Part shown: in pieces, positions 1 to 44,824 of the stretch | How positions within the stretch are numbered: position 1 is the first letter of the stretch | How the letters are laid out: every line of letters starts with the position of its first letter | Origin: Paramecium tetraurelia | Lineage: Eukaryota | Direction: 5' to 3' | Length of the DNA stretch: 64,000 nt | NCBI GenBank assembly: GCA_000165425.1 | Contig: CT868070.1 | Span: 1 to 64,000, forward strand | Translations under genes and position numbers: made by a program | The notes under the pieces: generated by a model | Told to the model about the DNA's origin: nothing | Databases searched by the model: none | Seen by the model: the letters and a program-made list of their open reading frames with translations, nothing else

Positions 1-3000
1 CACAAATGTGTTGTATCAATCACTGTAATTAGACCAATTATAGTACTTATGTCTGGTTTACACAAGTAAATTGTTTCAGTCTCAAATGGTTGCGAATATT
101 TATTGTTTAATTGTGCTTACTGTTTCTAAAGTATATGTTTATTTTGTTTTCCTGGATATTATAATGAATTAGCTTCTGGCTAATGCATTGCATGTCCATA
201 AGAGCTGAATTGTTATAAATGTGAATAGCGATCAAAGTAATGGAAGAATGGTTGGAAAATTTGGTCTTAAATAGATGTCTTTCATGGATTTTAATTAAAC
301 TTTTAAAAAATTACCTTGAAACTTTAAGCGCTAAAATTAAATGTAATTATCATTCTTTTGATTTTTTGACTATGGTTCAACAATTAAATTGCATAAGCAT
401 TTTTAATGCAAATAATTATTAGTGCCTCAAAAATAGCAAGAATAGTTCTTTTAATTAAAATTTGCAATCCAATAGTTGAGCAAATGCAAACTGTATTTTT
501 ATTCTAGTTTTATCAAATTAAATTCTTCATTAACTAGTGTTTTTTATCTAACTTCATTTAAGATTGTTCTATAGAGCTACACTCTTACATTTTCACTACT
601 TTAACCTAAAACATCTATTTGTCACTACATGTAAATTACTTTAATTGGTAATGGTTACACATTATTCCTTAACTCTAATCTAGAAATACTGAATTTCAAA
701 TCTATTTCAATATAAAATATAGTAATTTAGCCTTAATCAAATGTGAACATTCATTTATAATCTTTAAGTGCTTTAAAAGTATTATTTAATTCAGTAGTTT
801 TAAAATCCTATAACCTTTTATTATTTTATCAATAAATCTTTAGGAATTATAGATCCAATAGTTATCTTTACAGAATTTTAATCTACAATCTGTCAATAGC
901 TTGTTTTACTTCGAACATACAGTTTAATAACAATATATTGACATTAATATTGATATATTTACTATTATAAATTCAATGATTCACAATTCAAATATAATCT
1001 TACTTGATAATTAGTTTTAAAAAACAACAAATTGTTACTTTAATAACATTCTAATCTCAAATTCCAATCTTTATTCTAGCTCATTTATGAAAATTAAAAA
1101 TAACTAATATCTAGTTATGTAAGGATCTATATCATAAATATCGATCGTTTTCTCCTTGTTATCTAATATTCAGCCTTTATTCTAGACTTTTTGTTATAAA
1201 AGTTTAATTATAAGCAGAATCTCTTTAACAAATTCAACATTCTAAAATTTCATTCTATTTTAAACAACAAATGAATAAATTAATAAGGACTATTAAATTT
1301 AGTTTTGTAGTTTAAAGAATAGCTCAATTATTAATTTTGTTTAAGATTACTAGTTTCAATCTATCATTTTTGAGAATATTGAAGTTAATTAGATTTAACA
1401 CGACGATAAAACAATTCTTATAAATTTAGTATCAAATGATTTGACTAGTACTGTTAAGATGTCAAATATTATTTTAGATACAATCACTCTTTATGATAAT
1501 ATTTAATTGGTTTCCAATTTATAGTCAATTTCCTCTATTATTCTAATATAATCCAACATAATTGAGATATCTGATATTAAGATCATCAGATCAATTGGTA
1601 TTACAGAATTTTTACTATCTTCAGCCATTAACTTAGTACTTTCAAATTTTACTATTTCATTAAACTCAAAGTACTTCTTTAAGAGCATTATTGCAGATGA
1701 ATAATGTTCATGACTTAATCCATATTCGAAATATACATCTACTTTGATCATTTAAGAGGCATAAGATATTAAAATATAAAACTTTTATGTATCTAATCTT
1801 ATTCTTTTGGATTTCCCTATGATCTACATAATCTCTATTGCAACCTAAATTATTAGAAGATCTGAATCTATTGTTATAGATTCCATGAATTTAGATAATT
1901 GCATCATCTAAGAGAGTTAGACTATTAATTAGATATCTGGAATTCTTATATGATCAGAATAATAATGAGATATCTAAATTCTAAATTCTAAATTTAATAA
2001 TAACATTTTACTATTCATACTATGAAGGATCTGAGTCTGACTCAGCTTTAATATTCTATATAATTGCATAAGATTCGAAAATATAGTTGATCAATTGCTA
2101 GTTTAACCAAAATTATGTCTCTTAAAGTGAAAATAGTTTATTATATATAAGTGCTGAATAAGTTAATCTAATTGATTCATCTTTTGTTTCAACTAATTAC
2201 ATCTTTGATAGCCTTTTGAAGCACATAAATTGGAAATACCAACCGTTTTATTTAACATTGGAATAAATCAAAAGTTAATATTAAGTACTATCTAAGAGTG
2301 GTAATGGTTAACTTATATCCTCCTCAGTATAATTTAGAAAAATAAATATTGAAGATAGTTTTTCAACTTCCGCGGGATGTTTTAAAATTACATTACACAA
2401 TGAAGGGTAGTTGTCTGTCAGAAATTCTGTATTCAAAAATATCTACACTAAAATATCTGAAGAATAATCATTTTGTGGTTGCCTGTATATTATTGATAAA
2501 AGCATTAATATCTAAATTGATATATTAGATTCTATTTATAATACAATTATTGGAACTGCTGAAGGTGGTGTTATTTATCTCAAGACAATTGCTTAATAAG
2601 TTAACTTTAACTTCACTAATGTGACATTTTAGGATGTCTTTTCAAATGATTGTAATATTGCCAAACTTAATTTCATAAGCTTTAATCAATTACTCTATAT
2701 ATAGAATTGCAGAATTTTATAAACGATATAGGGTTATTCCAAATTTAGGTCTTTGTTTAGTCCACTTCAAAAACATGAAACTACAATGATTTCAATATAG
2801 TGAGGTTATCTTGTTTTTCGAGATAAAAGCAAAATCAGTTTGACATCAATCGAAATAGACTATTCTTATTATTATCAGAATTCTATAATTTAAATTAGAT
2901 TTTCAGAAGGTATTATAATAATATTATTTTTAATAGATTAACAATGCAAAATTGAAATTACAGGTCTTAAAATCAAAAACTTTAAATGGTACAAAGATGA

Positions 3001-6000
3001 TTCAAAATTGGTAGCAATCTAAATTAAGGAAGCAATTGATGATTAGTTAATACTGTCATAAAGCTGTCAAAACGAATACATATTAAAATTGAAGAACTCG
3101 ACTTATGAATTAATAAATTTATCAGATTTTATTATATGAACCCTAAAATTAGATTGAAAATTTAGTTTAAATAATTAATGTAAAAAATACAGATTCAATA
3201 TCAATTAAATCAAGCTAATTTTTAAATAATTAGTGCCTATTGTGTTAATAAGTACTTATTTTAATTAAATTAATTGAGTTGCAATCGGACAATATTATTT
3301 TATCAAAACATATGGTTAATGGATAATTAATGTGGTTAAAATGGATGTTTATGCATCGTTTAAGAGTTTCAAAGCTAAGATCAAAAGCAAATGTCTAAGT
3401 TAACACTTGACACTATGTTTTGTTATAGAAATTAAGCAAAGAAAGGAGGATGCATAGTTAGCCAATAGATTGGTCTTTAAATAACAAATAGTATTTTAAG
3501 TGAAAAACTCACAGAATAAGGAGAAAGTATTTATTATGATGGAGAAATTACAAATCTTTTATTTCAAAATAATCTTATAGTGTCAAATACAGCATAAGAA
3601 GGAGGTGCAATATATCTAGGCAGCCAAAGTTTACCTGAATTAAATAAAACAGTAAACTATTTGAGTAATAATACTGCACATAGATATGGTAATATTAGTT
3701 CATCTCACTCAACTTAACTTACAATATATACAAAAATTTGTAGTTTTAAACTTTAGTATATTAATGCTTACTTAACTAATTAATCCAATCCATCAGAATT
3801 ATTAGTCTTAAAATTGCCGAGTGGTTAATAAATTTAGACGTATTAGTATATTGATATCGATAAATAAAAATACTAGCATTAACAAATAAAATTCAGAGTT
3901 TTAGCTTTAAACGCTTATCACGAATAACAATTTCATCTTAATAATAGTGAATGTTTAATTTAAAGTGGCCTCCAGTAAGGTTCCTAAGAAACCGTTTTTA
4001 CAAATAATATACAAATTATAATCGAAAAGTGTTTGATGAAGAAACTTAAGATTATAATTTAGATGATTTAATTATTTTTTACGGAACTGAGAATAATGAA
4101 AAGTTGTAATAGTGTCTAAATCCCCAAATATGAAGATACTTTTCCTTATTAGATAATGGATTACAACTCTAAATATTAATTAATTTTATACATTCAAACA
4201 TATCCATGTGAATTGGGAGAATATAAGAACCTCACTGATAATGCTTGTTATTTATGTGACATTAACAAGAAATAATATTCAGTAACTATCAATGCAACAA
4301 CCTGTTAATTTATGGATGAAGATACAATAGTTTCAATAACACCTGCCTAACTTTATTTAAAGCTAGATATTGGAATAGTGAAATTATTGAGCATTGTTAA
4401 AATAGAATAGAGAACTGTTTAGGTGGATGGAAATAAGGAACGAGACTTGTGAAATTGGCTAATTAGGAGCTTGTTGTGAAGCATGTGATAATACAATACC
4501 GAGGAAATGTTTAATATAGCCTTAAGAAATTGTATTAATGTTAAAAACGAGAGGATTTGGATGAATAAATTATTTATATCATATTGATAATCTTATGGTA
4601 TTTTATACTTATTTAATTTTAAGAATTTGTTTTCTATCTATTTATCAACAAATGGAGTTGAGAAATTGATATTAGAATTATAGAAAAATAAAGTAGGATC
4701 AAGACAATTAATAATTAACAATAATAACCAAACTGGTCCACTTATGAAAATGCTTACAAATTATTTACAAATCTTGGCCAACATAATACATTTTAATGTT
4801 GAAATTCCATAAGCATTTAAGGATTATAATAATATTACTGGGAACTCTTAAACAATGTTATTAGTAACCACGGATTACTTTTTAGCTGAGAATTTTCATG
4901 AGGGAATTATTTATGTGAAAATGATTTATAGTATCATTTGTCCACTGTTTTATGGATGGATCTTCCTATTTATATCTGATTAAATAAATAATTTATAAAC
5001 ATTATACTTCTTATTGAGAGTCCTAAATAAGATCATTTATAATGAAGCAGTACCAACTTCTTGTGATTTATATTTATTTTGTAATTATAGGTGATATAAT
5101 TATTGATATCTTCATTATCATTTAGAACATTATCCGGCATAAAATGGATCCAGTGTGATTTGGCTTATTAATTTGATACACCACTTCATCAATAATGGAT
5201 CCCTTATCTAACCTTACTAATAATCATTACTGGATCTATTGTACCAGGAATATTTATAATATACTTAACCAAATTTAGAAATACCCTTTAAAAATATGAT
5301 GTGAGAAGATAATGGGGATACTTATATTTAGAATATTAACCTAAAGCCTATTATTGGGAAATAATTAGGATTGTCAATAGAGAGTTGATAATGATTGCCA
5401 TTACATTCTACTAAGATAATATTGTCATTAAGTGCACTCTTTTATTTATTGTATAATTTACCTATTTATTTATAAACTAAATAGTTTTGCCTTTTCAGAC
5501 AAAAAATTTAAATTAATTAGAATAAAATAGTACTTTGTTATGCATTTTTACCTTATTTGCAGTTCTTTCATTATCATTAACAAGTAGTTTTTCTACTATT
5601 GTTATATTATCTATCATTATAACAAATATTTATTTATTAATTACCTTTATATAAAGTTTAATAAATGGATATTTATAATCAACGGAGGAGTTAATGGACA
5701 AGATCAAGGATATTATTAGAGAAAAACTTAGAACAAAATTACAATAATATCCATCTTTGAATAGTTGGCTTGTAAATAAAGGTTAGAGGAGAAAAATCGT
5801 GATTGAAAGATATAAAAAAATAAGGAAACATCTTTTTGGAGTGATATAAAGACTCAGTAGAATAGAGAGATAGAAATGTAATTTATTAGATTTTTATCTA
5901 TTTCAGTTTCACAAATTTCTCCAAACTGCACTAATAGTGATTTACAAAAACCCAGAGATTTCACTTTAATATTGTTGAGACCATAATAGATTTTATTTAC

Positions 6001-6070
6001 AAGTAGTGAATACAACACTATCAATGACCCTTTCACTAATTTGATTAAGAAAATAAAATCTAAAGGATGA
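1..6070 (+). pseudogene. Gene A: 3' part (runs off window start) of a giant Cys-rich / beta-helix (GGAI-FxxN) / multi-TM surface protein gene; decayed inverted paralogue of gene B
   Basis: Ciliate-code translation gives Cys-rich repeats (1-260), GGVIYL/GGAIYL motifs (~2560, ~3601), a Cys-rich CLGGW..CEIGQLGACCEAC stretch, a TM region and C-terminus ...NDPFTNLIKKIKSKG-TGA (6068-6070). It aligns by eye to the reverse complement of 35706-~42250. Lesions: in-frame TGA at 1711, 1951, 1966; +1 T at ~2008; deletions versus B at ~270, ~2815, ~4100, ~4373. Confidence 0.85.
4973..5004. other. Candidate retained IES (TA-bounded 30-bp insertion)
   Basis: TA-tctgattaaataaataatttataaacat-TA is present in A and absent at the homologous site of B (~36765). 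Removal leaves one TA and restores the TM helix CPLFYGWIFLFIYFLLRV. Confidence 0.5.
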
Positions 6071-7479
6071 AAATTAATTTTAAATATATGAAGGATTTTT
6101 ATAAAATATTATAATATAATAAATTAAATATTATACATTTTCCCATGTTTTCAAATACAATTTATAATCCATTATTTTAATGACAATATGGGAATCAAAA
6201 TATTTTGAATTGTCATTTAATTTTTGTATTAGAAATTTAACAATAGACAAAGTATTATTAATATATTTCTTTTTTGTAATTAAATTAATGAAGCTTTATA
6301 TGCTTATCATTACAATTAATCATGAAGTTCGATAATTTTCAATCCGAATGTAAAATCACGCAGATGTGAACTAGCCAACCAGACAATTATAAATTTACAG
6401 ATAGCAACTCTCCAAAGAATTCTTTGGAGGAAGGTTTCGAATTGGTTTGAAAGTAATAAAGCTTCAAATATTTTGTGCTGCCTTAAATCTTCGATAAACC
6501 ACCCATAGAATTTATTAAATAACTGGGGAAAAAGCAATCAATTATTTATTCTATCAATCACAAGGACTAATAATTTAAAAATGTATTTTAACTTATACCT
6601 TTTACTTTATATTTTTTAGTACTATATCATTTACATTTGAGTTTGGAGAACAGATCTATTTAGCAATTAAGGTTTTAATTACATCACTTGTGTTACGTCT
6701 CATGATTTCACAAATTTAAAAATATATTTTTGGCAATTAAGAGAGAAGACAGATTGACATAGAAATTAAATGGCTAAAATGAATTCTTATATGAACAAAA
6801 ACAAGATAAGTTTGATTCTTTAGATGAAAATCAGGAAATATTTTGGTATTTCTTAACTTTAAATGAAAGTTCAGAATTGTTGAAGGATAATCTTAATGAT
6901 TATTTCAAATTGGAATTAAGAATAAGTTCCTCTAAGGCCTATTCCCACTAAAGAAATAAGAGAATTGGACCTTGAGTGGGTGCAATGACATCTAGAGAAG
7001 TCGTACAATAATAAGGGGAAAGAGGGTGGGGTTTAAAAATGATGGAGGCCCAAGACACAGTGGAACCTGGTTGCCAGAAGGAGATGTTGAATCGAATTGT
7101 GGTTAGGAAAGATTAAAATGACACATAAAACCATTCAGTTTTAAAATACTCATCCTGCTTAAATGAAATATTCTAATTGTAAAATCATTTTAATTATAAA
7201 TGAATATTGAACATATTTTATTAATTAGTGCATCTACTGAAAAAAATTATAAGGCATTTCTCTCCCTAACAAAACCATTTCATATCTTCTTTGATTTTAG
7301 GTTTTACAACTTTGGAGGCAGAGATAATTATAGATATTTTTATACATTATTAAATTAAGATAAGTATCTAAACAATACCGATTAATTGCCCATCGCATTC
7401 ACAATATAATAGCTAATAATGCTTCTAATATTTGTATAACTGAGGATGGAATCAGTAAACATATATACTCCTGAACTTT

Positions 7480-9580: not shown

Positions 9581-10652
9581 CATCTTATTTTAGAGTATGG
9601 AAAAGAATACAGTCTGTGACTAAAAATTGACTATCTGTATAATAAAAGTCTGGATCAATCTAATTGTAGTTTAGAAATACACTCCATTTCCTAAACCACT
9701 TCTCCATGCTTAAAGAAGACAATACTATAAATCGACTATCTTTTACAAGAGAGTGCCAAAAGTAGGCAGAGCCTGTATATCAATTACAAAAACACTTGTT
9801 GTTATGTCTAGATTCTATGATAAAATAATGTTACATATTCATAATCAATCTTAACCCACGATTCTAGTTAAATTAATCCAAAATGATATATATAACTTGG
9901 TAATTAAAGAAGAATCATAAGAAGATGTTTAACAAAATGGTTTTGGGATAAATTATTATTCAACTAATATTTTAAATTCTTCAACTGTGTTAAAAATTAT
10001 ATTATTTGAATTGAAGTTAAACTCTACTTTCGAAAATCTGCCAGATTAATAACCTAATGGTTTTACTTGATCATTTTAATTTAATTATAACTGTAATTCT
10101 CCTCCTTGAGTAATTATTGTCTCCTTTATTTATAAATTAGTACTAGATTAATAGTTTATGATTTAGCAGTTATCGTTCCAAATATATCATAAATAATTAC
10201 TTATCTTTTATAAGAAAATTAATATGAAACATATATTTAAATCCATTTTTCATCATAATCGAATGCATCAAATACGAATTTCGCTATTTGAATCAATTAG
10301 TCTTCTGATTGATATTAGAAATATAAATATTTTTCCTAATTAACATTTCTGTTTTTCCAATCTTAATAAAAAATACTCTATATTTAGAAGTATCAGGGTT
10401 TATCTCCCTTAATATCAAGAGCCCTTCAACTTTAGCAGATGTTTTAGAGTTCAAAAATATTGTAGTCTGTATGGATAAATATTAGAACCAGAAGCCATAT
10501 CCATAGGCCGGATAATCTAAAAGTGACATCTTCGTTGTCTCAGTAATGCCATCTAGAAGGCATCCTTACAAAGTAGTTGTATTACACTGGATTGTAGGTC
10601 TAATTAATCCTATCAATAGGATGTTGGCTGCCCAAATGTAGAAATTAATCAT
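9580..10652 (-). pseudogene. 5' fragment (~1.07 kb) of a B-type giant surface protein gene
   Basis: ATG at 10652 gives MINFYIWAANILLIGLIRPTIQCNTTTLQGCLLDGITETTKMSLLDYPAYGYGFWFQYL. Collinear with B 43690-44762 and truncated at ~9580. Confidence 0.8.
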
Positions 10653-10721
10653 TCTATTAATATAAAAATTATGAAAATATATCTTAATCACTTGGAAATT
10701 TTCAATTTTTAATTCAAATCA

Positions 10722-13700
10722 TCAAAGTATATTCTAATTTTGAGAACTTTAATATTCTTTTTTAATTAATAATTATGTTTTAATTCTTGTTTTAAAAAAA
10801 GCTTTTATTAATTCAAATCACTTTTTTCTTAGTTTTATGGAGCCACTCGAATGAGCTTAAAACATATTATAACTTATAAATATTTAATTAAATTATCCTA
10901 AAGTTTCAAATACTTTACAACACATCCTTCTTATATATTTAGAATTCAATTTCCATAAATGAAGGATCATGAACACTCCACCCAAAATGAATATAGAATT
11001 AATGAAGATCAAAATTAAATTTTTATATATGGAATCTTAGTCCTATATTGAAAATAGTGAGTGCGATATTAGGATTATGATACTGATTATATTTAGCTAA
11101 ATTTCAAATCTATTCATTTACTTATGATAATAGATATTATTATCTTAACAGACTTTAGTATGTATGATTAATAGAGAATATGAGAATACTCCTTTTATTA
11201 CAGCATTTGCATCAATCATTATGATTATGCATATCAATCCATTTACCAATAAGAATTTATAAAATTCCCAATGTTGATAATTGTATGAGTAAGATGTAAA
11301 CCAGAATCCAAAGTCTTTAAAATGAATTGGCTTTGATAAAAATAAGGTTGACTTTGACTTTTTGTAATAATAAATAAGGTAAAACTATCCAAAGGCAAGT
11401 AACAGCGGGTAAAAATAAGAAAAATACTAATCTAAGATGATTTGTATTTTTGTAGTTATTTGAAATATTTTTGTAAATCCAATACATATCTTAAATATCT
11501 CTAAAAGCAATAAGTTGAACCATAGATCTTATAAAACTTCCAAAAATGATATATATTAGATATATGAAATTATATAATTCCATCATAGTGATTTTTGGTT
11601 TAGAGATAAAAGTCTTAGCAAAACAAAAACAAATAAAAAATAGCCATCAATATTATCATACATATCAAATTTTATAAGATTTATAAGTAAAGCACACTAA
11701 CTTCTAAGACTAATAATTGACATATATTAAATATTTCTAAAAATGTAAAAGGATCTCCTAAAAAATGAATTAATTATTAGACTTAATCAGAAAATACAGA
11801 AGATAACTCTTATGTGTAACTTATGATTTGAAAATAGAACAATATAATTTTTATGCTCTAACCAATAAGTGCTACCCCTAACTTAAAAATACCTTATCTA
11901 TAAGGTACTTTAAACTGGTTAATATTCAAACGAATAAATTAAAGTCTTTTTTCGACAAATAATTATTATAAGAAGGTAGGCACACAAATCTTAAATTAAC
12001 AACATTTTTACATTAAAATTGTGATCAATAAATTAAACAGCTATTGTTAATTATCATTTTAGCATATTTAACTAAAAAAATCCCTCTCTTTAGTAATTTC
12101 CTCCTCCTCTCTCATTATAATAATCACATTATTCACAAAGAGCCCCTATATAACCCTATTAGCATAGATCATTTCCAACTCCCCATCCTCCTATACAATT
12201 TTGCTGATTATTTAAGCACAAGTCAATGGTTGAAGTAGTCACCTTCATTCTCCAATAACCCTAGATATAAGAAGATGATTAGAATACCTATTTTAAGAAT
12301 ATTTAAGCTTAAGTTATTTCCTAAATCTTTTGACCATCTACAATTTGGCAACTAGTTGCTCCTACAATTACAGAGTATTATTTCTATCTACAATGCATTA
12401 GTGACAATAATCCTCTTTTGATTAACTATATTCTCCCATTTAACATTCATTAGGCTTAATCAATAAACTCAAAACATAGTTTTAGTGATATCTAATTTAA
12501 AATATAATTATACCCTTCTATTAAATGACTTATATTGTTGATTATTGGAATATAAATGCTATTACATTTAATAGTAAGTTCAAAGGTTTGATTTGAATCT
12601 GAAGGTATATAAAAGATTAAATCATCTAAATTATATGAAAATGTTGATTAATTAAAGATAATTTTATTTTTATTTAAAGATAAATTTTGTTCTTATCTAC
12701 TGTTCATATTATTTATTTGTAATTCACAATAGGTATTTGTAAGATTTCTAACCATTTCTAATTATGAATTATATGCACGTAATCTCATTTACATAGTTTT
12801 TTAATTATATCTATTCTTTTCTTTTTCAAATTTCATGTATTTTGATAATGGAATTCCAGTAGGTATATGAATAATTGATATTTATCCTGATTTACTAATG
12901 ATTTAAGACTTTTAACTATTTTTAGAATTTTATACAATAGTTGGTTTTATTATTTCGTCTTGAAAAATTTATAAATAGAGCTATTAAGGTTGCTCATCAA
13001 TTTGATTCAATCCATAATTGGCAATCAACTCGATTCCTTTAATATTTCTATTCAAGTTGTTTTCACTATAGATGCCACTTCCAAATTAAGCTGAATTATT
13101 TGTAATAACTACATTCTCTGAAATTAATGTTGAATTATTTCCTTTTGTAAAAATAGCTCCTCCATATACTGCCTTATTGCCAACTATCAAACTTCTTATA
13201 ATTGAAATGATTTAATTTTAAATAAACAAACAACCTCCGTATTAAGCTTAATTGTTGATGCATTACATATCCTCTATTCTGATAGCAGATTTAGCTTTAG
13301 AGAAATTAGAATCTTAACTTTAAAGAATATGGCTATCTTATGATATGAAAGAAATGCAACCTTTTTCTCCACAATACGAATTAGAAATAGCTATTTTTTA
13401 AATAATTATGGATGTTTTCGAGCACTTGCTGCACTTGTTATTTTACAGAATAATATCAGAAAGTTATATTTTTTGTTATTGATATTAATCTATAAATTAA
13501 AATGATATCATAGTTACTGTTGATGATTATATCTAAGAGAATAAAGTTTCTAAAAGTGTTATTTGATTAATATTAGAGAAACTCTCATTAAATTTAAAAA
13601 AGTTGAAGGAGCATCTATTAAATTATTATTACAAGATGTTTTTACGCTAATGTTTAAAATTTTTGCATTTCTTTTTGAAGGAATACTGTTTTCAGTAATA

Positions 13701-16700
13701 TGAATTCGAGTGCAATTGTAAAACTCTATATTGTCAAGATTTATTTAATCAGACTATCTTACTGGAGAAAATAGCATTAATTGATTAGAAAAAATAAAAT
13801 TTTGTATTGAAATATTCTTGAGATTTGCACTTCCATATAATTAGAATAGGGGTATAGGTGGATAATTTGTTACATGTAAATGTCTTATTTAAAATTAACA
13901 ATCATAACAGTGTATCAGTGAATATTCTTATGTCAAAGTAGTTAGTTCATTATTTGATACATATCCTTGTCCATTCAAAATCATATTTTTTTGAATTATG
14001 CAATTGTTTATCTTACTTTTTGCTTATGATGCTTCCACGATTAAAATTAGGCTTTGTTTTTTAGGATTGCTTTCTTTTAATAAATTCAATAAATTCTAGG
14101 AGAATGAGACTTTTGTTAAATTCAAATTAAGATAATAATTAGGATTAATTGATGTTAAAGATACTTTTTCATATTTATTTACTTGATGTAAAATGTTAGA
14201 GGAAAAATTGCAATTGATAAATACAAATTATGAGCTAATTTATGACAGCATTTGAATTTCAAATAAAACTGAATCATATAATATAATATCAGTGATATTT
14301 GTATTTGAAACATAAGTAAATTAGCTATTTTATAAATTCATAAGGGTATTGTACATGAACTAATTGAATAGTTGTATATTACATTCTTAATTATTAAATA
14401 GACTTTTAAAATAATACTTTTCATGCAATATTATTACAGAGTTTAAAAATTTAAAGGTATTCGCATTCTTAATAGTAAATTCAGAGTAGCCTATTCCTCT
14501 CTGAATCATCAAAGTATCAAAAATAACAGTATTAGACTCAATATTGATTATGGACAATTCAATGTTCTTATCAAGAGAATCTTTTTAATCATCAATATTA
14601 ATAGCATTGTTGATAAATTCTATATTATTAAGATATACAGAATCTGAATTCAATAATAGGATTAAAGCATGTTTGTTTGAATAAACATTCTCTATGAACT
14701 TACCATTTTTAATTTATATTAATTCAATAAATCTTTAGCTTTGATTGATTAATAATGTGGATTATCCTAAAAATGAGAGTTTTGAATTTTGAATTCTATC
14801 AAAAACAGAATTTTAGAACTTGATATAAAATTTGAATTTTATAAAGTTGAATCTAAAATTGGGAATCCATTTAATTCAGCTTTTTAAATTTACTCAAAAT
14901 TTAAAAAACTTGTAGTGTTTAATAGGATTGAATTTTCAAAAATAAAATTATCTATCCTTAAAATTTCAGTTTATAAAAATTACTCAATTAGAGCAGTATT
15001 TATGAATTAGGAATTTTATATATACAAATTTAATATTTTAGTTTCTACTTTTTAAGATGTGTTATAATTGATTATGGATGTATTCAAAATTTTAACATGA
15101 TTTATAATGAGATCTAATGCTATTAATTTAGAATTTCTTTTTTGATTAGTAATTACAAATAAGCCATATTTAAATTGAACATTAATGTTATGTATCTATA
15201 ATTTCGAAATATTAATTTCGGACGATTCACTAATTTAGATTAAATACTCTTAATAGAATATATCAGTTTAATCTTGATAGATTTTAATGGATTAAAAATC
15301 TACAGTATAACGATTGACATTATCCATTGATACATATCCAGTCTACATTTGAAGATCAATGTTTTCAATTCTTATGTGTGTAAAATTTGAAGGGATAAGC
15401 GATTGTTTAAATTAAGGGTATTGCCAGATCCTTTTAAAATTAAGTTTAATTCAATCAAGCTAAAAGTGTTTGTTTATAAATTTGATTAGATCTTTAGTTC
15501 CTTATTAAAAGAACATAGTTAATTATCTGCAATCGTAAGTTAATAAGTAACTATCTTAACAAAATTTTGATTAAGATAGAGAAAATAGTCATAATACTCA
15601 TATAATGATAAATCCAGATTTTCTAAAAGAATATGAAACTTTCTTTAAATTACCTTTTATTCTTCATTTAATTAATTGAGATAGTTTTCTAAATCAATTT
15701 AGCTACAATAAATTTGAATTTGTATTACAATTTCTTTTTAGAGTTCCTAAATATTATCACATTTGATAAATTAGTGAATATCCTAATCGTAAAATAAGTC
15801 ACTAGATAATGGTGCTATGCATTTATGAGAAAAGTGTTCCAAATCTTTATTATTAAAAAATGGATTGATTATTAATTTCTCATTATCAGTTCTTGGATGA
15901 CATATATTACAATTTTAAGGACATTAAATGCATCTTCCATTATAAACATGGTAATGTGAATCATTAAATTAAATGCAAGAAAGACATACTTATTAATCAT
16001 CAATGATTTTGCATTCCTTACAATTACTAGGACATTTTTAGATACATTTATCATAATATTTAATATAGCCATCTTAACATTCAGTACATATCATCTCAAT
16101 CTCATTATTATTAAGGTTTTAAGTTAAATACGAATAATTTTCTATATAAAAATCAGATAAAATTGTGTAAATAGGCATAAGTGAGTGTTTTTGCATTCTG
16201 GATGAATCAACTTAAATGCAAGTTTTGCATTCTGAATTGCATGCTTGCAAAAGCTTGAATAATAATCATTATAATAACCATCTTCACATAAAAAGCAGCG
16301 ACTATAAATTTCCCAATCCTTTCTGTAACAAATAAGACAGTGAGGAATAAATTGATTGCAGAATCCAGATCCAAGCGGCATTACATAATTGACACCAAGA
16401 GCGCAATAAAAGAGATTTTATATATGAATTGCTTGATAGCATCCACTTAATCTTTACTCAACTGTTGTAGGAGTACAAGTATATTAATATTTTCAGTTTC
16501 TAATATGGAGGCAGCTAAACAATAGATACAACCTGTTAGAATATTTTTCAATTCTTAAGGTTGAAAATCATAAATTAGGGTATTTATAGAAGTAGATCTT
16601 ATGGAAAATTGAAAAGGATATATACAAAGATCTATATTATTAAGGTAACAGCTTTCCCCATCAAGAGATATATACGCATTATGATTACATTTTAAACACT

Positions 16701-18823
16701 TCATATATTCTTTACCAGTATATTTGTTCAATATCTTTTTACAAATTTAACAAAGTTCACCACATTTTTAACAACTTTCATTAAATAAAGAGTGTCCTTA
16801 TTAACAATCTAAACATCTTACTTACTCTAATTGTTTATCTAAAGTACATGATAAGCAACCCTAAGGACATTGTTAACAATGATTATTTTTTAAATAAAAC
16901 CCTTGATTACACTCTATACAGATTTCTGTATCTTTTCACTTAATGCAATTCAATTCACATAACTCACATGTATTATCCTTAGGATATAAATACTATTTGC
17001 ATTGATAATATGTATTTAATCCATTCACATTCTTAATAATTGATTACGAATTTTTGGTTTCAGTAAGATGTTCGCATCCAGAACACAGTTCTGTGACCAT
17101 CAAATCAAAATTGATGATAAATATTTCTTAGGATTGATAGTCTAATTATGGTTATAATAGAATTTAGAGTCATCAGTTCTGTAATCAATATTCCAAATTG
17201 GGTTTAAGTACCAATTTTGAGAATTTAATATACAATTTATTCAATTTACTGAATTATGACCTTGGCCGAAATAAGGGCTCCAAATTAACAATATAAATAC
17301 CATTTAATGCATCCCAAGAATTTCAAGTTCTTCCATACTTCAAAGTAGCCATAACTGTACTTTTTATTGTTTTTTACTTCAATGATATTGAACTCTTTAT
17401 AAAACTTTTTTTACTCGGAAACAGAGTTTAAAAAGGTTTCTAATTATTAAAATACATTACTTTGGCATATTAAACCACCTGTTTCCTCGTAGTTAGATTT
17501 ACACTAACATTAATGAAGATCAGTTTACAAATATCTATTTATTCATCGTAACATGATGCACAATCATATTAGGTAGGCCCTGTGCAAATTTTACAGCGTG
17601 CATTGCAATCTATTAGATAATTATATCTTCTCATGTTAGAATCTTTTCCAAAATGATATTCTATATTTTAACACTATTTAAATCTTAAATTTGAAATCAA
17701 ACCTTCAAAAGGCAATATTTGTACACTTTACTAATCTGTGAATAATGTTATTGTGGCATGATAATTAGAAAATTATTGGTAATTGTTAATATTCATCAGA
17801 AGATATTATTCTCATGTGTCCCAGCAAGATTGATACAATGAAATGTAAATGTATTGCTTATCATAAAACTTCTAAAATTAATATTTGAAGTAGCTCCATT
17901 ATTCAAAGTTTTATCTAGGTTTATAAAATTATGTATGCAAGTTAAAACCTATTCGTTCTCATTTCTTCAGGTATAAGATAATTGAATATTGTCTTCTTTT
18001 ATAATATAACAAATCTCTCTTTATCCAAAAATCAAACATATTGATAAACCCTAGAATATCCGCTTGATAATCGCGAACACTACAATTTCGCTAATAATAT
18101 GTTTCATTAAAAAAATATAATTCAACAGGTTTTCGACTTATTGGAGGTTAACATTTTGACATAAATTAAATAAATTAATTTTTCCCCTTATCATCAAAAA
18201 ATATAATTGAACTTTCAAATGTAATAATTATCGAAATTCCCCAAAAATAATTTGAGATGGAATCCATAAGGTCCTATAACGTAATATCCCTAACCTCCAT
18301 GTTGTAATTTAGAATTAGTATTTAATGTTTTCAATCCAAAATTAGTTTATAAAAAATTATAATAAGCACTATTCGCTGTATTAAATTAAGCATAATTGTA
18401 TTTTTTATTGGAATTAAAACTAAAATATGTAAAAATCCAACATCCCTCATAAATAAAGTCACCATATTAAATCTCATAATAGGCGACCCCATGCATTGTA
18501 TTGAACATTATGGCTAGCACTGGTTACTGTGTATAATAAATTGGAAATTAAAAGAATAAAGTTTGTATTTTTCCATCAATTTGTAAATTTAGGATATGAA
18601 ATCCATCAACAATAAGGCTTGAATCAAAATTTGGATTTGATTTATCTAAATAGTAATTTTTTCTTTGAGGAGCATATTGAGTCCATACACCAAATGCATA
18701 TTCATTTCCTCTTACATAACTCTTTTCTTGATAAAAGTTGTCACTTCTCAATTAGAATTAATCAAAATCGGTGTATGAACATGTTGATTAGACTAACCTT
18801 AATATATAAAATATCCAAATCAT
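10722..18823 (-). pseudogene. Gene D: full-span paralogue of gene C (giant Cys-rich/beta-helix/multi-TM protein), probably pseudogenised
   Basis: ATG 18823 (MIWIFYILRLVQSTCSYTDFD...), TGA 10722-10724, collinear with 44825-53733. Lesions versus C: -1 nt at ~12385, -2 nt at ~12072, 30-nt deletion ~13419, 627-nt deletion ~13960, ~110-nt deletion ~18010. Confidence 0.75.
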
Positions 18824-20350: not shown

Positions 20351-20589
20351 AAATATTAAATTGAGTTAAAAGAAAAGGATTACTATTAAACTTACAAAAA
20401 ATACCATAAAAAAATGAATCATTCATAATATATTCAAATTCATAACTCCTTATTCAAAACATCCATATGGCATTATGCTAAATAACAAGTCGAAAAAAGG
20501 TCAAGGCATTCATTTACAAGTAGAATGTATATATTTATTCATTACTACTAAGATTAACATTTTACAATTAACAAAGGGCTTAAATTTAT

Positions 20590-35705: not shown

Positions 35706-38700
35706 TCATTCTTAAGATTTTTTTTTTATCAAATTAGTTAAGGGATCATTGATAGGGTTGTTTTCACTATTTGTAGATAAAATCTATTATGGTTTCAATA
35801 ATACTAAATTGAAATCTCTAGGACTTAGAAAACCACTTGAAGAGCGATAAGTTGAAATTTGAGAAACTAAAACAGATACAAATCTAAATTACATTTCTAT
35901 CTTTCTATTCTACTACATTTTTATCTTACTTCAAAAAGATACTTCTTTATTTATTTAAATCTCTCAATCACGATCTTTCTCCTCTAGCCTTTATTTACTA
36001 ACCAACTCTCTAAAAATCGATGATACTACACTTTTTATTTCAGTTTCTCTCTAATATGATCCTTAATATTATCTATTAACTCCTCCTAAGATTCTAGATA
36101 TCCTTTAATTAAACTCTAAATAAAAGTCATCAATAAATAGATATTTGTTATAATTATAGACAATACGACAAGAGTATAAAAACTACTTGTTTGTGATAAT
36201 GAAAGTACTGCAAATAATGTAAAAGTGCATAACAACGTACTCTTTTATTCTAATTAATTTAAAATTATTGTTTTAAAAGGTAAAACCATTTAGTTGTAAA
36301 GAAATAGGCAAATTAAATAATAAATAATTAGTATANNNNNNNNNNNNNNNNNNNNNNNNNNNNNNNNNNNNNNNNNNNNNNNNNNNNNNNNNNNNNNNNN
36401 NNNNNNNNNNNNNNNNNNNNNNNNNNNNNNNNNNNNNNNNNNNNNNNNNNNNNNNNNNNNNNNNNNNNNNNNNNNNNNNNNNNNNTATATTTGGTTAAGT
36501 ATATTATAAATATTCCTGGTACAATAGCTCCAATAATGATTATTAGTATTATCAGATAAGGAATCCATTATTAATGAAGTGATGTATCAAATTAATAAGC
36601 CAAATCACCCTGTATCCATTTTATGCCTGATAATGTTCTAAATGATAATGAAGATATCAATAATTATATCACCTATATTTAGTAATAACAAAACAAATAT
36701 AAGACACAACTTTTTGGTACTACTTCATTATAAACGATCTTATTTAGAACTCTCAAAAAGAAGTATATAGATAAGTAGATCCATCCATAAAACAGTGGAC
36801 AAATTATACTATATATTATTTTCACATATATGAGTCCTTCTTAAAAATTCTAAGCCAAAAAGCAATCTGTTGTAACTAATAAAATAGTTTGAGAATTTCC
36901 AGTAATATTATAATAATCTTTAAATGCTTATGGAATTTCAACATTAAAATTTATTATGATAGCCAATATTTATAAATAATTTGTAAGCATTTTCATAAGT
37001 GGACCTGTTTGTTTATTATTGTTAATTATTAATTATCTTGTTCCTACTTTGTTTTTCTATAATTCTTATATGAGTTTTTCAACTCCACTTGTTGATAAAT
37101 AGATTGAAAGTAAATTCCTAAAATATTAAATATAAAATACCATAAGGTTATCAATATGATATAAATAATTTGTTTATCCAAATCTTCACACTTTTAACAT
37201 TAATATAATTTCTTAAGACTATATTAACCATATCCTCTTATATTGTATTAATCACAAGCTTCACAACAAGCACCTAATTAGCCAATTTCACAAGTCTCAT
37301 CTCCTTATCTCCATCCACCTAAACAGTTCTCAATCCTATTTTAGCAATATTCAATAATTTCACTATTTATATATGGTCTCCAATATCCAGATTTTAATTA
37401 AAGTTAAGCAGGTGTTATTGATGCTATTGTATCTTCATCCATAAATTAACAAGTTGTTGCATTGATAGTTACTGAATATTATTTCTTGTTAATGTCGCAT
37501 AAATGACAAGCATTATCTGTTAGATTCTTATATTCTCCATATTGACATGGGTAAGTATGAATGTATAAAATTAACTAATATTTAGAGTTGTAATCCATAA
37601 TCTAATAAGGAAAAATGTCTTCATAAATTGGGATTTAAACACTATTACAACTTACTTATAAGATTAGATTAGATTAATCATTTTCAGTCCCATAATAAAT
37701 AATTAAATCATCTAAATTATAATCTTATGTCTCTTAATCAAAATCTTTTCTATTATAATTTGTATAATTATTTGTAAAAACGATTTCTTAGGAGCCATAC
37801 TGGTACCCACTTTCAATTAAACATTCACTATTACTAAGATGAAATTGTTATTCATTATATGCATTTAAAGCTAAAACTCTCAATTTTAAATGTAAATGCT
37901 AGTATTCTTATTTATGTATATCAAAATATTAATAATTTTTAATTTATTAACCACTCGGTAATTTTAAGAACTATAATTCTGAGGAATTGGATTAATTAGT
38001 TAAGTAAGCATTAATCTGCCCATTTCTCAAAGAATTTAAAGTTGAAAATTACAAATTTTTGTACATTACTGTAAGTTAAGTTGAGTGAGATGAACTAATC
38101 TTACCATATATATATGCAGTGTTATTATTGAAATAGTTAAATGTTCTATTTAATTCAGGTAAACTTTGATTCCCTAGATATATTGCACCTCCTTCTTACG
38201 CTGTATTTGACATTATAAGATTATTCTGAAACAAAAGATTTGTAATTTCTCCATCATAATAAATACTTCCTCCTTATCGAATTGCTAGATTTTCACTTAA
38301 AATACTATTTGTTATTTTAAGACCAACTTATTTGCTAACTATGCATCCTCCTTTCTCTGCCTAATTTCTATAGCAAAACATATTGTCTAGTGATAACTTA
38401 GACATTATCTTTTATTCTTAACTTTGGAACTCTTACACGAAGCATAAGCATCCATTTTGACCACATTAATTATCCATTAACCATATATTTGATAAAATAA
38501 TATTTTCTGATTGCAACTCAATTAATTTAATAAAAAGAAGTCCTGATTAACATAATATGCACTAATTATTTGAAAATTAGCTTGATTTAATTGATATTGA
38601 ATCCTTATGTTTTACATTTGTTATTTAAAGTAAACTTTCAATCTATTTTTAAGGTACAGCTAAATGATCCTATAAATTTATTAATTCATAAATAGAATTT

Positions 38701-41700
38701 TTCAATATTAATATTTATTCAATTTGACAGTCTTATGACAGTTTTAATTAATCATCAATAACTTACTTTATTTAGATAGCTTACAGTTTTGGATCATCTT
38801 TGTACCATTTAACGTTTTTGATTTTGAGATCAGTAATGTCGATTTTGCATTTTTAATCTATTGAATATAATATTATAATAATACCTTCAGAAAAGCTAAT
38901 TTACATTATGGAATTCTAGTAATAAAATGAATAGTCTATTTCGATTGATGTCAAACTAACTTTGCTTTGATAATTCAACTATAAGAATATATTTAAATAT
39001 AACTGAACGAATAAATGTCTTAAAACAAGATATCCTTATTACATTGAAATCAAAGTAGTTTCATAATTTTAAAATAAACTAAACAAAGACCTAAATTTGG
39101 AATAACCCTCTATTGTTTATAAAATTCTGCAATTCTACATATAGAGTTATTAATTGTAGTTTAGGAAGTTAAGTTTGGCAATATTACCATCGTTTGAAAA
39201 GACATCCTAAAATGTCACATTAGTGAAATTGAAGTTAATTTATTAGGCAATTGGTTTCAGATATATAACACCACCTTCAGCAGTTCCAATAATTGTATCA
39301 TAAATAGAATCTAATATATCAATTTAGATATTAATGCTTCCATCAATAACATACAGGCAACCACCAAATGATTATTCTTCAGATATTTTAGTGTAGATAT
39401 TTTTAAATACAGAATTTCTGACGAGTAAATATCCTTCATTTTCTAATGTAATTTTAAAACATCCTGCAGATGTTGAAAAACTACCTTCAATATTTGTGTT
39501 TCTAAATTACACTGAGGAAGATATTAGTTAACCATTTCCACTTGTGTGATAGCACTTAAAATTAATTTTTGATTTATTCTAATGTTAAAGTATAAGGTTG
39601 ATATTTCCAATTTATGTGCTTCAAAAAGCTATCACCAATCTAATTATTTGAAGCAAAAGATGAATCAATTAGATTAACTTATTCAGCATTTATATATAAT
39701 AAACTATTTTCACTTTAAGAGACATAATTTTGGTTAAACTAGCAATTGATCAACTATATTTTCGAATTTTATGCAATTATATAGAATATTAAAGCTGAGT
39801 CAGACTCAGATTCTTTATAGTATGAATAGTAAATGTTATTATTAAATTTAGAATTTAGAATTTAGATATCTTATTATTATTCTGATTATATAAGAATTCC
39901 AGATATCTAATTAATAGTCTAACTCTTTTAGATGATGCAATTATCTAAATTCATGGAATCTATAACAATAGATTCAGATCTTCTAATAATTTAGGTTGCA
40001 ATAGAGATTATGTAGATCATAGGGAAATCCAAAAGAATAAGATTAGATACATAAAAGTTTTATATTTTAATATTTTATGCCTTTTAAATGATCAAAGTAG
40101 ATGTATATTTCGAATATGGATTAAGTTATGAACATTATTCATCTGCAATAATGCTTTTAAAGAAGTACTTTGAGTTTAATGAAATAGTAAAATTTGAAAG
40201 TACTAAGTTAATGGCTGAAGATAGTAAAAATTCTGTAATACCAATTGATCTGATGATTTTAATATCAGATATTTCAATTATGTTGGATTATATTAGAATA
40301 ATAGAGGAAATTGACTATAAATTGGAAACCAATTAAATATTATCATAAAGAGTGATTGTATCTAAAATAATATTTGACATCTTAACAGTACTAGTCAAAT
40401 CATTTGATACTAAATTTATAAGAATTGTTTTATCGTCGTGTTAAATCTAATTAACTTCAATATTCTCAAAAATGATAGATTGAAACTAGTAATCTTAAAC
40501 AAAATTAATAATTGAGCTATTCTTTAAACTACAAAACTTAATTTAATAGTCCTTATTAATTTATTCATTTGTTGTTTAAAATAGAATGAAATTTTAGAAT
40601 GTTGAATTTGTTAAAGAGATTCTGCTTATAATTAAACTTTTATAACAAAAAGTCTAGAATAAAGGCTGAATATTAGATAACAAGGAGAAAACGATCGATA
40701 TTTATGATATAGATCCTTACATAACTAGATATTAGTTATTTTTAATTTTCATAAATGAGCTAGAATAAAGATTGGAATTTATCATTAGAATGTTATTAAT
40801 ATAACAATTTGTAGTTTTTTAAAAGTAATTATCAAGTAAAATGATATTTGAATTATGCATCTTTGAATTTTGAATAGTAAATTGATCAATATTAATGTTA
40901 ATATATTGCTAGTTAACTGTATATTCGAAGTAAAATAAACTAGCGACAGATTATAGATTTATATTCTGTAGAGATAAGTTTTAAATCTATAATTCCTAGA
41001 GATTTGTGGATAAAATATTAAATGTTATTGGATTTAAATCTTCTTAATATTATTGTATAACTACTGAATTAAATAGTACTTTCAAAGCACTTAAAGATTA
41101 TAAATGAATATTCACAGTTGATTACAACTAAATTATTAGATTTTGTATTGAAATAGATTCGAAATTCAGTATTTCTAGATTTGAGTTAAGGAATAATGTG
41201 TATCCATTACCAATTAGAGTAATTTTTGCTGATGTGACAAAATAGATGTTTTAAATTAAAGTAGTGAAAATGTAGGAGTGAAAATCTATTGAGCAATCTT
41301 AAATGAAACTAAATTATAACTCAACTTCTTAAATTTGTTATATATTTAGATATGTATACAAATTTAGATTTTCGATTCTTCCAAAATTGCTTTAAGATTT
41401 ATTATTGGTTAATAGTTCATCAATTTTAACATTTTACTGTAGAAAATGCTATTTGTCTAAGGCCAATTCATGATGTTAATTAAATAGCTCTGTGTTACAA
41501 TAAAGGTTGAAATTCAATATAATTGAATTAGGATCTGTTCCAGTTTCACTCAATTTAAAGAATTATTAAAATTTAGTGTCATAATAATAGTCTTAAAAGC
41601 TTAACTAAGATTATAACATTAAACAAGCATGCGTAGAAGATTAGACATTAGAATTTGAGAAATATGGATTAGCACTTAATAATTAAGAATTAGTTTTAGG

Positions 41701-44700
41701 TTTACAAATCTGACAATACCTTGGACAATCAATGCAATCCCCATCATATAAGGACAGACGTCGACCTTCGTACATTTTGCATTTAACACATTTATTTTAT
41801 CCATTACTTTTTATACAGAGTGCGCAATTCTCTGGGCATTTCTTGATACATTTATCTTAGTAAAATTCAAAATCTACTGTACAAGTCTTACAAATAACTT
41901 CTAATTTATCTTATGTTTCATTTCCAAAAATATCATCATAGAAGGTTCCTCTTTTCATCATGAAATGAATAATACCATACCAAATTTTCCAACCATTCTT
42001 CCATTACTTTGATCGTTATTAACATTTATAACAATGCATCTCTGATGGACACGCAATACACTAACCAGATGCTAATTCAGCATAATATCCAGGATAGCAT
42101 TACAAACATATATTATTGAAACAGTAAGCACAATTTAACAAAATAAAATCACAACCATTTGAAGCTGAAAAGGTTTGTTAAAATTCGTTTGTATAAACAA
42201 GACATTAGTATTATAACAAATTTAATTACAATGATTGAAAAACCTCCATTTCATACATTTGTATACAATATTCCTTATTTTGTATATTATCAGGAATTGA
42301 ATCTATTTTAACACATGATCCTGAGAGTAATGAAGCATATCCTTCAGCACACAAAGCACAATAATTCAGAAGTTAATTAGAGTTATAATCTCCTTTTTCA
42401 TACATATGAAATATAGTATTTACTTTATTTCTCATAAACCACGATTTATGAAATTAGATTTCAGATTTGCAATGAACATCTAAATTTTCAAGACAATCAA
42501 CTGCATTAATTGATAAATAATATTTTTAATTATCTATGCAATTAATGCATCTATTATAATACGATCCATCTTTAGGATTTTAAACATACAAGCATTCTAA
42601 ACAATATTTACTACAAGGGTAGCATTATCCTTAAAACACTGAGTATTTTCCTATGCATTATTTGCATTGAACTCCAGAATTATATTCACATTCTAAACAT
42701 TCCTTTGGACATTCAAGGCATACATTATTATTAGGATTCAAAATCATTTAATTATAACAAGATGTGCAAATTGAATAATCTTCACATGTCTTACAATTTG
42801 AATTACAAACAACACATTCTCCATTTTTATAATAGAATTGAGATTGACATTAAATATATACCTTTAATAAGGTATGAAAATGACAATTTGAATCAATATT
42901 TTAGTTACATAACGTTTTGCATCCAACACACAAGGTAAGAGAAGATGTTGACGTATCAAGAACATATAATTCAATATCTTTATCTTCTCGCTAGACTAAT
43001 TCATATTGACCATAACTATTAAAAACATAATCAGATTCGCATTTCAATTTTGTAGCAAAGGTTTCTGGTTAAGTCAAACATTCTATGCAACTTATCTTTT
43101 CCAATTAAATTTCATTAAATTAAGGACATAGTATATAAATGACTTCATTATCGACTTCTTTAATTGGAAAATAACCAAATTAAGATAGAGTTTAATTCTT
43201 TGCATTATAATCTTATATTGAAGTGGGATAGAAATCCAAGAATTCTAATTTAAGATATTGATATTACATATACAATTTCCACTATTACTTTCAATATAAC
43301 CTAGAGTACATTTACAATAGCTATTTTCTAGATATCTATTAGAGTTCTAATCACAACTTATGCACTAATTAAAATATGGACCATTACAATCTAAACAACT
43401 GAAATGACACTCTATTATAAATGTAAAATAACCATACTTTTCAAGAGAACAAAAGACTCAGGTAAACAAACAGTTATTTTACTGCTCTCTGATTTTACAT
43501 ACAATCCATCAGAGGCGCCAATAAAAAGAAATCCACTTCTAATTCTTAGGTTGGCTCCATTGAAATGATAAGTTCTATTATGATATTGAGCCTCATAGAT
43601 ATCCCCATCATTGAACCACATTTTCAAATTTGAAACAGGCACTTCTGCTTTATCAAAACCGTACATAATAGAAACATAATGCCATTATCTTAAATCTTAT
43701 GTTAAAGTATGGAAAGCAACATCAGCTTAACCCAAAAATTAAGCAGTATTTTCAGAAAAATCTGGATCTTTTTAATTATAAGTTTAGAAATACACTCCAT
43801 TAGCTAAATTATCTAGCCATGCTTAAAGAAGACAGTATTATAAATCGACTAATTTTTAATAGACGTTAACATAAGGCAGAAATAGTATTTCAACTCCAAA
43901 AACGCTAGCTGAATAATTTAAATTCTAAGATATAAAATAATGTTACTAAATTATAATCAACCTTAATCCAAGATTCAAGCTAAATCAATCCAAATTAATA
44001 TATGTAACTTGATATTAATGTCTAATCATAAGTTGAAGTTTAACAAAATGGTTATGGGATAAATTATTATTCAACAAATACTTTAAATTCTGGAGCTGTG
44101 TTAAAAATTACATTATTTTTATTTAAGTTAAACAATAGTTTCGTAATTCTGCCAGGATAATAAGCATATTGTTTTACTTCATCATTTTAATTTAATTATA
44201 ATTTTAATTCTCCTCCTTGAGTAATTATTGTCTCCTTTAATTCTAAATTAGCACTTGATTTATAGTTTATGAGTTAGCAATTATCATTCCAAATATCATA
44301 GAGAATTATTTATCTTTAATAAGGAAATTAATATGAAACATAAATATGAATCCACTTGCCATCAAAATCGAATGCGTCAAATACGAATTTTGCTAATTAG
44401 ATCATTTAACCATCTGATTCATATTATAAATATAAATATTTTTCCTAATTAGCATTGTTGTTTGTCCAATCTTAATAAAAAAATACCCTATATTTAAAAT
44501 TATCAGGATTTATCTCCCCTAATATTAAAAGCCCTTCAATTTTAGGGAATGTAGTTTTGCTCTTATGTAATGTAGTCTGTGTAGATAAATATTAGAACCA
44601 AAAGCCATATCCATAAGCAGAATAATCTAATAGTGACATCTTGGTTGTCTCAGTAGTGTCATCAAGAAGACATCCTTGCAATGTATTTGAATCACACTGG

Positions 44701-44762: not shown

Positions 44763-44824
44763 AATATTAAAATGAAAAATTATTAAAATATATCCTATTT
44801 AATTTGGACATTTCAATTTATAAA

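What the first reader, a model, noticed from the sequence alone, without database searches (positions are those of the whole stretch)
1060..2186. Near-identical tract between inverted paralogues A and B carrying a one-directional A->G mutation cluster
Seen: A 1060-2186 and B ~39655-40780 (reverse complement) are almost identical, while both flanks are clearly diverged. In 1060-1565 there is one difference (A->T at 1300). In 1566-2151 there are 13 substitutions, all sense-strand A(B)->G(A): 1566, 1581, 1683, 1712, 1756, 1765, 1912, 1952, 1967, 2024, 2028, 2072, 2151, plus one extra T at ~2008. Twelve of 13 have a 5' A/T and 12 of 13 have a 3' A. Three convert TAA(Gln) to TGA (1711, 1951, 1966), so B is the ancestral state. 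Known: clustered strand-biased A->G is the signature of A-to-I deamination of RNA and of Pol-eta-type synthesis at WA motifs. Inference: a recent gene conversion or templated repair event with mutagenic copying (error-prone polymerase or edited-RNA template) acting on a surface-protein family. The 5' A/T context is weak evidence in DNA this AT-rich.
Basis: partly seen in the sequence, partly recalled or inferred. Interest (0 to 1): 0.8.

Follow-up and report, generated by a model that had tools for sequence, protein, structure and literature searches.

The report
Real gene conversion, probable sequencing errors
A dead gene copy in a Paramecium genome really did receive a 1.1-kb patch from a sister gene, which is ordinary, but the striking row of 13 A-to-G changes in that patch is most likely a run of sequencing errors in the reference.

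Summary
In detail: A 1059-2186 matches B 40780-39654 except for 13 A>G in 1566-2151, one A>T (1300) and one extra T. The genome has five copies of this gene; the four others have A at all 13 sites. The tract is a real conversion patch in a pseudogene: 52 of 52 diagnostic sites are B-type, and contigs from independent runs join both A flanks to it without a difference. The G cluster has no support outside the reference. All 4 runs read A and lack the extra T. No listed run holds more than 0.46 of the words; 0.475 is expected without any G. Depth fits three G-free copies in 8 of 9 contigs. The cluster spans 586 bp and hits 6 of 8 TAAAA sites inside, 0 of 4 just outside, as one faulty capillary read would. 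Caveats: these contigs drop minority variants, the depth test is weak, the best-documented Sanger artefact runs G>A, and no traces were seen. Verdict: ordinary conversion plus probable base-calling error (about 0.8); real hypermutation about 0.15.

The parts
546..6620 (+). Copy A of a five-member gene family; pseudogene regardless of the tract
   Evidence: Matches three C34 copies over 546-6620; about 20 A-specific indels outside the tract, many not multiples of three; A-specific TGA at 2801 in the family frame
1059..2186 (+). Conversion tract in A, B-type sequence, 1128 bp
   Evidence: 52 of 52 diagnostic sites B-type; flanks 1 of 7 and 9 of 36 B-type; junction contigs 739-1088 (3 of 4 runs) and 2157-2464 (4 of 4 runs) with no differing letter
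1566..2151 (+). Cluster of 13 A>G, 586 bp, probably base-calling errors in the reference
2006..2009 (+). Extra T in a T run (frameshift), probably an error of the same read
   Evidence: Absent from the four other copies; left out at full depth in 4 of 4 runs
1300..1300 (+). A>T in A, possibly a real mutation after the conversion
   Evidence: Run X4 shows no other letter here (0 of depth 110.2); X1, X10, X12 read A
36993..43290 (-). Copy B coding frames (ciliate code): 39487-43290 and 36993-39620; uncharacterised cysteine-rich protein
   Evidence: 21 CxxC motifs in the first frame, 5 GG[ASCV][IVLF][YFV] repeats and a hydrophobic stretch near residue 818 in the second
39654..40780 (-). Part of B that matches the A tract (likely donor)
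   Evidence: at A position 1917 A agrees with B, not with the C34 near-twin
38878..40907 (-). 2030-bp core in which B is nearly identical to the copy at G000:C34 about 256.6-258.6 kb; the A tract lies inside it
   Evidence: 2 substitutions (40783, 39922) and 1 indel (39547)
39547..39547 (-). Single extra base in B that splits its reading frame; not in the other four copies
   Evidence: not tested with reads

Best explanation
Two layers. (1) Real: copy A, already a decaying pseudogene, had 1.13 kb overwritten by non-allelic gene conversion from a B-type copy. This family of scaffold-end duplicates is a patchwork of such tracts. After the event A picked up at most about one change (1300). (2) Artefact: the tract is now an identical three-copy repeat, longer than a capillary read, so an assembler would have had few anchored reads there (inferred). 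The right-hand 586 bp was taken from one faulty read that called G for A in a fixed context, mostly the second-last A of a run, and added one T. Shown: sequence content, polarity, real junctions, no G in four runs' contigs. Inferred: capillary origin, single-read depth, the trace defect.
For: Four other copies have A at all 13 sites. At 12 of 13 sites every laid contig reads A in 4 of 4 runs, and the extra T is left out in 4 of 4. Best share of words among 24 listed runs is 0.46, none reaches half (20 holders, 11 studies); words free of G and the extra T make up 300 of 631 = 0.475. Depth model: 8 of 9 tract contigs lie closer to three G-free copies; mean log residual 0.02 vs 0.21; likelihood ratio 1.5 as one observation, 4.9 per run, 76 if all were independent. 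Run X4 keeps A's T at 1300 yet reads A at the G sites. Near-deterministic context: TAA[A]A hit 6 of 8 inside, 0 of 4 in the left half of the tract; second-last A of a run 11 of 13 vs 41 of 215. Single capillary traces with long runs of one mismatch type in one motif are a documented artefact that can enter references at low coverage (PMC2873906, passages). A published 13x Sanger macronuclear draft of this species needed 13,758 substitutions and 10,339 small insertions corrected (PMC3464196 section 27).
Against: The contigs drop minority variants: A-specific flank letters at 2540, 2890, 2899 and 2907 are also replaced at full depth in 4 of 4 runs, so absence of G from contigs is weak on its own. 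The depth test is noisy (residual sd 0.22); X1's longest contig fits the G-real model better, and with calibration on multi-copy contigs only the values fall between the models. The documented Sanger artefact is G>A (AGA to AAA), the opposite direction; a search for an A>G one found nothing relevant. No second such cluster in 161,562 aligned columns from 405,941 bases. At 1566 some depth in X4, X10 and X12 does not read A; X4 and X12 have a loose end at 1558 whose source I could not place in G000. The runs may be other strains or cultures than G000 (X4 has private letters at 1727 and 3044). I did not establish how G000 was sequenced.
Confidence: 0.8

Rival explanations
1. The G letters were real in one molecule or one lineage only: a single macronuclear molecule, the sequenced culture, or one library clone, hypermutated on one strand by an error-prone polymerase, by damage, or by copying an A-to-I edited RNA, and taken into the consensus at single-read depth.
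For: One strand, one type, sharp borders. 3' A enrichment matches the downstream preference reported for invertebrate and amphibian ADARs (PMC5625713, passages). Y-family polymerase genes exist in G000 (6 matches at 4 loci). Runs from other cultures cannot exclude it. On the minus strand 12 of 13 are TT>TC, which I recall as the mutagenic outcome of a UV TT photoproduct (memory, not checked).
Against: No ADAR-type gene: one deaminase-domain match, no dsRNA-binding domain in 5 frames scanned around it, and the only dsrm match lies on another contig (these searches give lower bounds). 5' G is not depleted (1 of 13 vs 26 of 215). WA is not enriched (p=0.13) and there is no A>C, while the Pol-eta-linked signature is A to C/G at WA (PMC4686820, passages). 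The extra T needs a second process. A 75% hit rate at one pentamer looks systematic rather than enzymatic (inference).
Confidence: 0.1
2. One reading: the conversion itself was mutagenic, the G letters are fixed in A in living stocks, and contig simplification hides them.
For: Short A-specific variants are demonstrably dropped from these contigs. The cluster lies wholly inside the tract and ends 35 bp from its right border. One of 9 depth comparisons favours it.
Against: 8 of 9 depth comparisons favour no G. No listed run keeps any G-bearing words beyond the G-free share. X4 keeps T1300 but no G. The left 507 bp of the same tract has 0 of 25 AN[A]A sites changed. The 2030-bp B/C34 tract of the same sequence and 24 other high-identity tracts show no such bias.
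Confidence: 0.06
3. The whole tract is a mis-assembly: B-derived reads were laid into A, whose true sequence is about 10% diverged.
For: The tract lies inside a near-identical B/C34 repeat. The junction contigs reach only 30 letters into the tract, one short of the tool's 31-letter rule for bridging.
Against: Those 30 letters hold B-type diagnostic bases (1077, 1082; 2162, 2168, 2186) joined to A-specific flank with no differing letter; ending 30 letters in is what a merge in a 31-mer graph gives (inference). None of the 20 loose ends shown (4 not shown) lies at 1058 or 2186. Tract contigs are about three times as deep as A-unique contigs.
Confidence: 0.03

Closest known systems
Gene conversion between paralogues in Paramecium aurelia species (PMC4199370, passages read)
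   Same: Patches of near identity between otherwise diverged paralogues; here a patchwork across five copies.
   Different: The paper's median identity tract in P. tetraurelia is 108 bp and concerns whole-genome-duplication pairs. This tract is 1128 bp, lies in a pseudogene, and the two scaffolds share only this gene cluster.
Systematic capillary-sequencing error with runs of one mismatch type (PMC2873906, passages read)
   Same: Many changes of one type, one strand, one motif, spread over more than 100 bp and within a read length; can enter a reference where coverage is low.
   Different: Documented direction is G>A in AGA and AGG; here it is A>G, 7 of 13 AAA>AGA. No chromatogram was seen.
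ADAR hyper-editing (PMC5625713, passages read)
   Same: Clustered A>G on the sense strand; 3' A preference as in invertebrates and amphibians.
   Different: The record is genomic DNA; no ADAR-type gene found; no 5' G depletion; only one arm of the inverted pair is changed.
Pol-eta-linked (non-canonical AID) mutations at WA (PMC4686820, passages read)
   Same: Clustered changes at A, 12 of 13 with 5' A/T.
   Different: WA is not enriched over this AT-rich background; no A>C; the informative context is at +1 and -2.

Membership tests
Non-allelic gene conversion tract | Donor-type bases at diagnostic sites inside, recipient-type outside | tested here: met
   52 of 52 B-type inside; 1 of 7 and 9 of 36 B-type in the flanks
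Non-allelic gene conversion tract | Both junctions exist in DNA independent of the assembly | tested here: met
   Contigs 739-1088 in 3 of 4 runs, 2157-2464 in 4 of 4, no differing letter; 30 letters into the tract, one short of the tool's bridging rule
Non-allelic gene conversion tract | One molecule carries both flanks (non-reciprocal, flanks not exchanged) | tested here: inconclusive
   No listed piece spans the whole tract; B's flanks in G000 stay B-type
Single-read base-calling artefact | Variants absent from independent sequencing of the locus | tested here: inconclusive
   Absent from contigs of 4 of 4 runs and from the index, depth leans the same way, but contigs drop minority variants
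Single-read base-calling artefact | One type, one strand, one motif, within a read length | tested here: met
   13 A>G in 586 bp; TAA[A]A 6 of 8; capillary read length of 600-900 bases is recalled
Single-read base-calling artefact | Defective chromatogram or low quality at the sites; one read covers them | not testable with these tools
   No trace data available
AGA-to-AAA Sanger artefact (PMC2873906) | Trace reads A where the truth is G | tested here: not met
   Direction is A>G: four paralogues and all runs have A
ADAR A-to-I hyper-editing | Deaminase domain joined to dsRNA-binding domains in the genome | tested here: not met
   One A_deamin match, 397-aa frame without dsrm; single dsrm match on another contig; lower-bound searches
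ADAR A-to-I hyper-editing | 5' G depletion; 3' G or 3' A preference | tested here: inconclusive
   5' G 1 of 13 vs 26 of 215; 3' A 12 of 13 vs 73 of 215; 3' G 0 of 13
ADAR A-to-I hyper-editing | A>G in RNA of B at these sites | not tested
   No listed holder is on record as RNA; none laid
Pol-eta WA signature | Enrichment at WA over background, A to C/G | tested here: not met
   12 of 13 vs 161 of 215, p=0.13; no A>C
Pol-eta WA signature | Pol eta orthologue present | tested here: inconclusive
   6 IMS matches at 4 loci, not assigned to subfamily

The most novel reading that the evidence does not exclude
The G letters are real, in one macronuclear molecule or lineage or fixed in A: a Paramecium process, either an A-specific error-prone repair synthesis or copying from a deaminated RNA template, put 13 strand-polarised A>G changes at an (T)AN[A]A motif into a freshly converted tract. 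That would be an undescribed hypermutation signature in an organism recalled to have one of the lowest known mutation rates.
Probability: 0.12. Interest if true: 0.8.

Novelty: not a real feature. Interest (0 to 1): 0.12.

Why it matters
As it most likely stands, it is a caution: identical repeats in older assemblies can rest on one read, and its systematic miscalls mimic RNA editing or polymerase-eta mutagenesis, even creating stop codons. The conversion tract is real but of a kind already described in Paramecium. If the G letters proved real, they would point to an unknown localized hypermutation or RNA-templated process in ciliates.

Tried and rejected
Treating absence of G from contigs as proof: rejected, since short A-specific flank variants are dropped too. 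Filing it under the AGA-to-AAA Sanger artefact: rejected, wrong direction. Looking for more such clusters: all-against-all of 405,941 bases (C87 whole, nearly all of C34) gave 51 alignments; apart from the 3 rows for this cluster, 8 rows had runs of 5 same-type changes, each within 38 bp; no second cluster. Assuming C87 and C34 are whole-genome-duplication partners: rejected, they share only this gene cluster among alignments over 2500 columns. Seeking a protein from another assembly that crosses A's tract: the search of longer proteins returned one hit, a C34 copy. Placing the loose end at 1558 in G000: no match. No RNA holder listed; this says nothing on expression or editing. Family identity: 0 Pfam families for 3 proteins, 0 NCBIfam families for 3. 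Papers holding ciliate, A-to-I, RNA editing, ADAR and Paramecium together: 0. Papers on an A>G capillary artefact: 2 listed, neither relevant by title and abstract start. Earlier findings of this scan: none returned. No supplements were read; those of PMC2873906 (spectra by quality) could bear on how common A>G runs are in traces.

Full report
Observation. A self-comparison of the window finds A (553-5277, +) and B (41307-36486, -) at 87.6% identity. The bias is far beyond chance: A>G makes up 16 of 168 A-specific flank substitutions, P = 7e-13 for 13 of 14.

Setting. The window is G000:C87:1-64000; open frames appear under the ciliate code, and a homologue is labelled Paramecium tetraurelia, uncharacterised. 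G000 holds three more copies on C34, at about 200, 222 and 257 kb. All four other copies have A at the 13 sites and lack the extra T, so G is the derived or erroneous state. The family is a patchwork: B and the 257-kb copy are nearly identical over 2030 bp (2 substitutions, 1 indel), and the A tract lies inside this core. A is a pseudogene independently of the tract, with about 20 indels and a TGA at 2801 outside it, so the three new stops met no selection and tell nothing about function. The protein has many CxxC motifs, GGxxY-type repeats and a late hydrophobic stretch but no Pfam or NCBIfam match; 'surface protein' stays an inference.

The tract is real. At sites where B-type and other-type copies differ, A is B-type at 52 of 52 inside the tract, and at 1 of 7 and 9 of 36 in the flanks. 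I laid 4 of the 24 listed runs, from four studies, on 301-3300. Contigs 739-1088 (X4, X10, X12) and 2157-2464 (all four) match the window without a difference and end 30 letters inside the tract. None of the 20 loose ends shown lies at a junction. Tract contigs are about three times as deep as A-unique ones. Conversion between paralogues is described as widespread in Paramecium, with a median identity tract of 108 bp (PMC4199370, passages); this is a long example.

The G cluster is unsupported. At 12 of 13 sites all laid depth reads A in all four runs, and the extra T is left out in all four; at 1566 a part of the depth in three runs does not read A, and X4 and X12 have an unplaced loose end at 1558. 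In the run index, queried with 1540-2200, the best share of words is 0.46 and none of 24 rows reaches half; words free of the G letters and the extra T are 0.475 of the query, words shared with other copies 0.453. This evidence has a clear limit: the contigs drop minority variants, and A-specific flank letters (2540, 2890, 2899, 2907) are replaced in all four runs as well. I therefore modelled depth from k-mer copy number, calibrated on 27 contigs that do not depend on the question. Eight of 9 tract contigs lie closer to three G-free copies; the likelihood ratio is 1.5 as one observation, 4.9 per run, 76 if all were independent. Three of the depths used (2110-2186 in X10 and X12, and the neighbouring other-type contig) had coordinates inferred from table 3, not listed. 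Calibrated on multi-copy contigs alone, the values fall between the models. One internal contrast helps: X4 keeps A's T at 1300 but none of the G letters, though X4 also has private letters and may be another strain.

Anatomy of the cluster. It spans 586 bp with sharp borders. The 5' A/T context is background (p=0.13). The signal lies at +1 (A, 12 of 13 vs 73 of 215) and -2 (A, 12 of 13 vs 74 of 215); 11 of 13 are the second-last A of a run. TAA[A]A is hit at 6 of 8 sites inside and 0 of 4 in the left half of the same tract. One type, one strand, one motif at a very high rate, a read-length span and a slipped homopolymer fit a faulty capillary read. Such runs are documented in single traces and can enter references at low coverage (PMC2873906, passages), but that paper's artefact is G>A, the opposite direction, so this is a resemblance and not membership. 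A published 13x Sanger macronuclear draft of this species needed 13,758 substitutions and 10,339 insertions of 1-2 nt corrected (PMC3464196, section 27 read whole). I did not establish that G000 is such a draft; B's lone frame-breaking extra base at 39547 would fit one.

Biological rivals. For edited RNA: the 3' A preference matches invertebrate and amphibian ADARs (PMC5625713, passages). Against: G000 gave one adenosine-deaminase match without a dsRNA-binding domain, most likely a tRNA deaminase (inference), and 5' G is not depleted. For Pol eta: Y-family genes exist; against, WA is not enriched and A>C is missing. If conversion here were mutagenic, other tracts should show it: the 2030-bp B/C34 core and 24 other high-identity tracts have mixed spectra. 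The same scan found no second error cluster either, so recurrence of the artefact is not shown. A real event confined to one macronuclear molecule or clone cannot be excluded by runs from other cultures.

Verdict. Ordinary paralogue conversion into a pseudogene, overlaid by a probable base-calling artefact (about 0.8). Real hypermutation in one molecule or lineage about 0.10, fixed and hidden about 0.06, whole tract mis-assembled about 0.03. Raw reads or the original traces would settle it.

Noticed in passing
window 39547 (B, minus strand): One extra base found only in B splits its reading frame into 39487-43290 and 36993-39620; it lies in the core otherwise nearly identical to the C34 copy and may be another assembly error.
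   Followed up: partly
window 9582-17932 vs 43694-52724: A second paralogue pair (85-89% identity, same orientation) with further copies on C34; a 1825-aa frame at 46589-52066 (-) with no Pfam match, about 25% identical to the A/B family protein.
   Followed up: partly
window 20588-20990: An isolated 400-bp inverted fragment of the A/B family, 88-92% identical to the copies.
   Followed up: no
window 33094-33834: Tandem 126-bp units (3.9 copies) on the minus strand, the period of WD40-type repeats (the family label is recalled, not tested).
   Followed up: no
window 30794-31122 vs 32960-32630: Inverted repeat of about 330 bp, 87.7% identity, with an assembly gap (32017-32166) between the arms.
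   Followed up: no
window 611, 2823-2826 and 1558: Recurring loose ends: at 611 in three runs, at 2823-2826 in three runs (site of A's 45-bp deletion, so probably paralogue contigs), at 1558 in two runs (unplaced). The one at 611 could be a germline insertion or an unrelated locus.
   Followed up: partly
window 1727 and 3044: Run X4 alone reads C>T at 1727 and T>A at 3044 at full depth; the 1727 letter is in none of the five G000 copies.
   Followed up: no
G000:C34 207342-208028 vs 253187-252500: Another near-identical patch in this cluster, 689 columns with 6 differences of mixed type.
   Followed up: no
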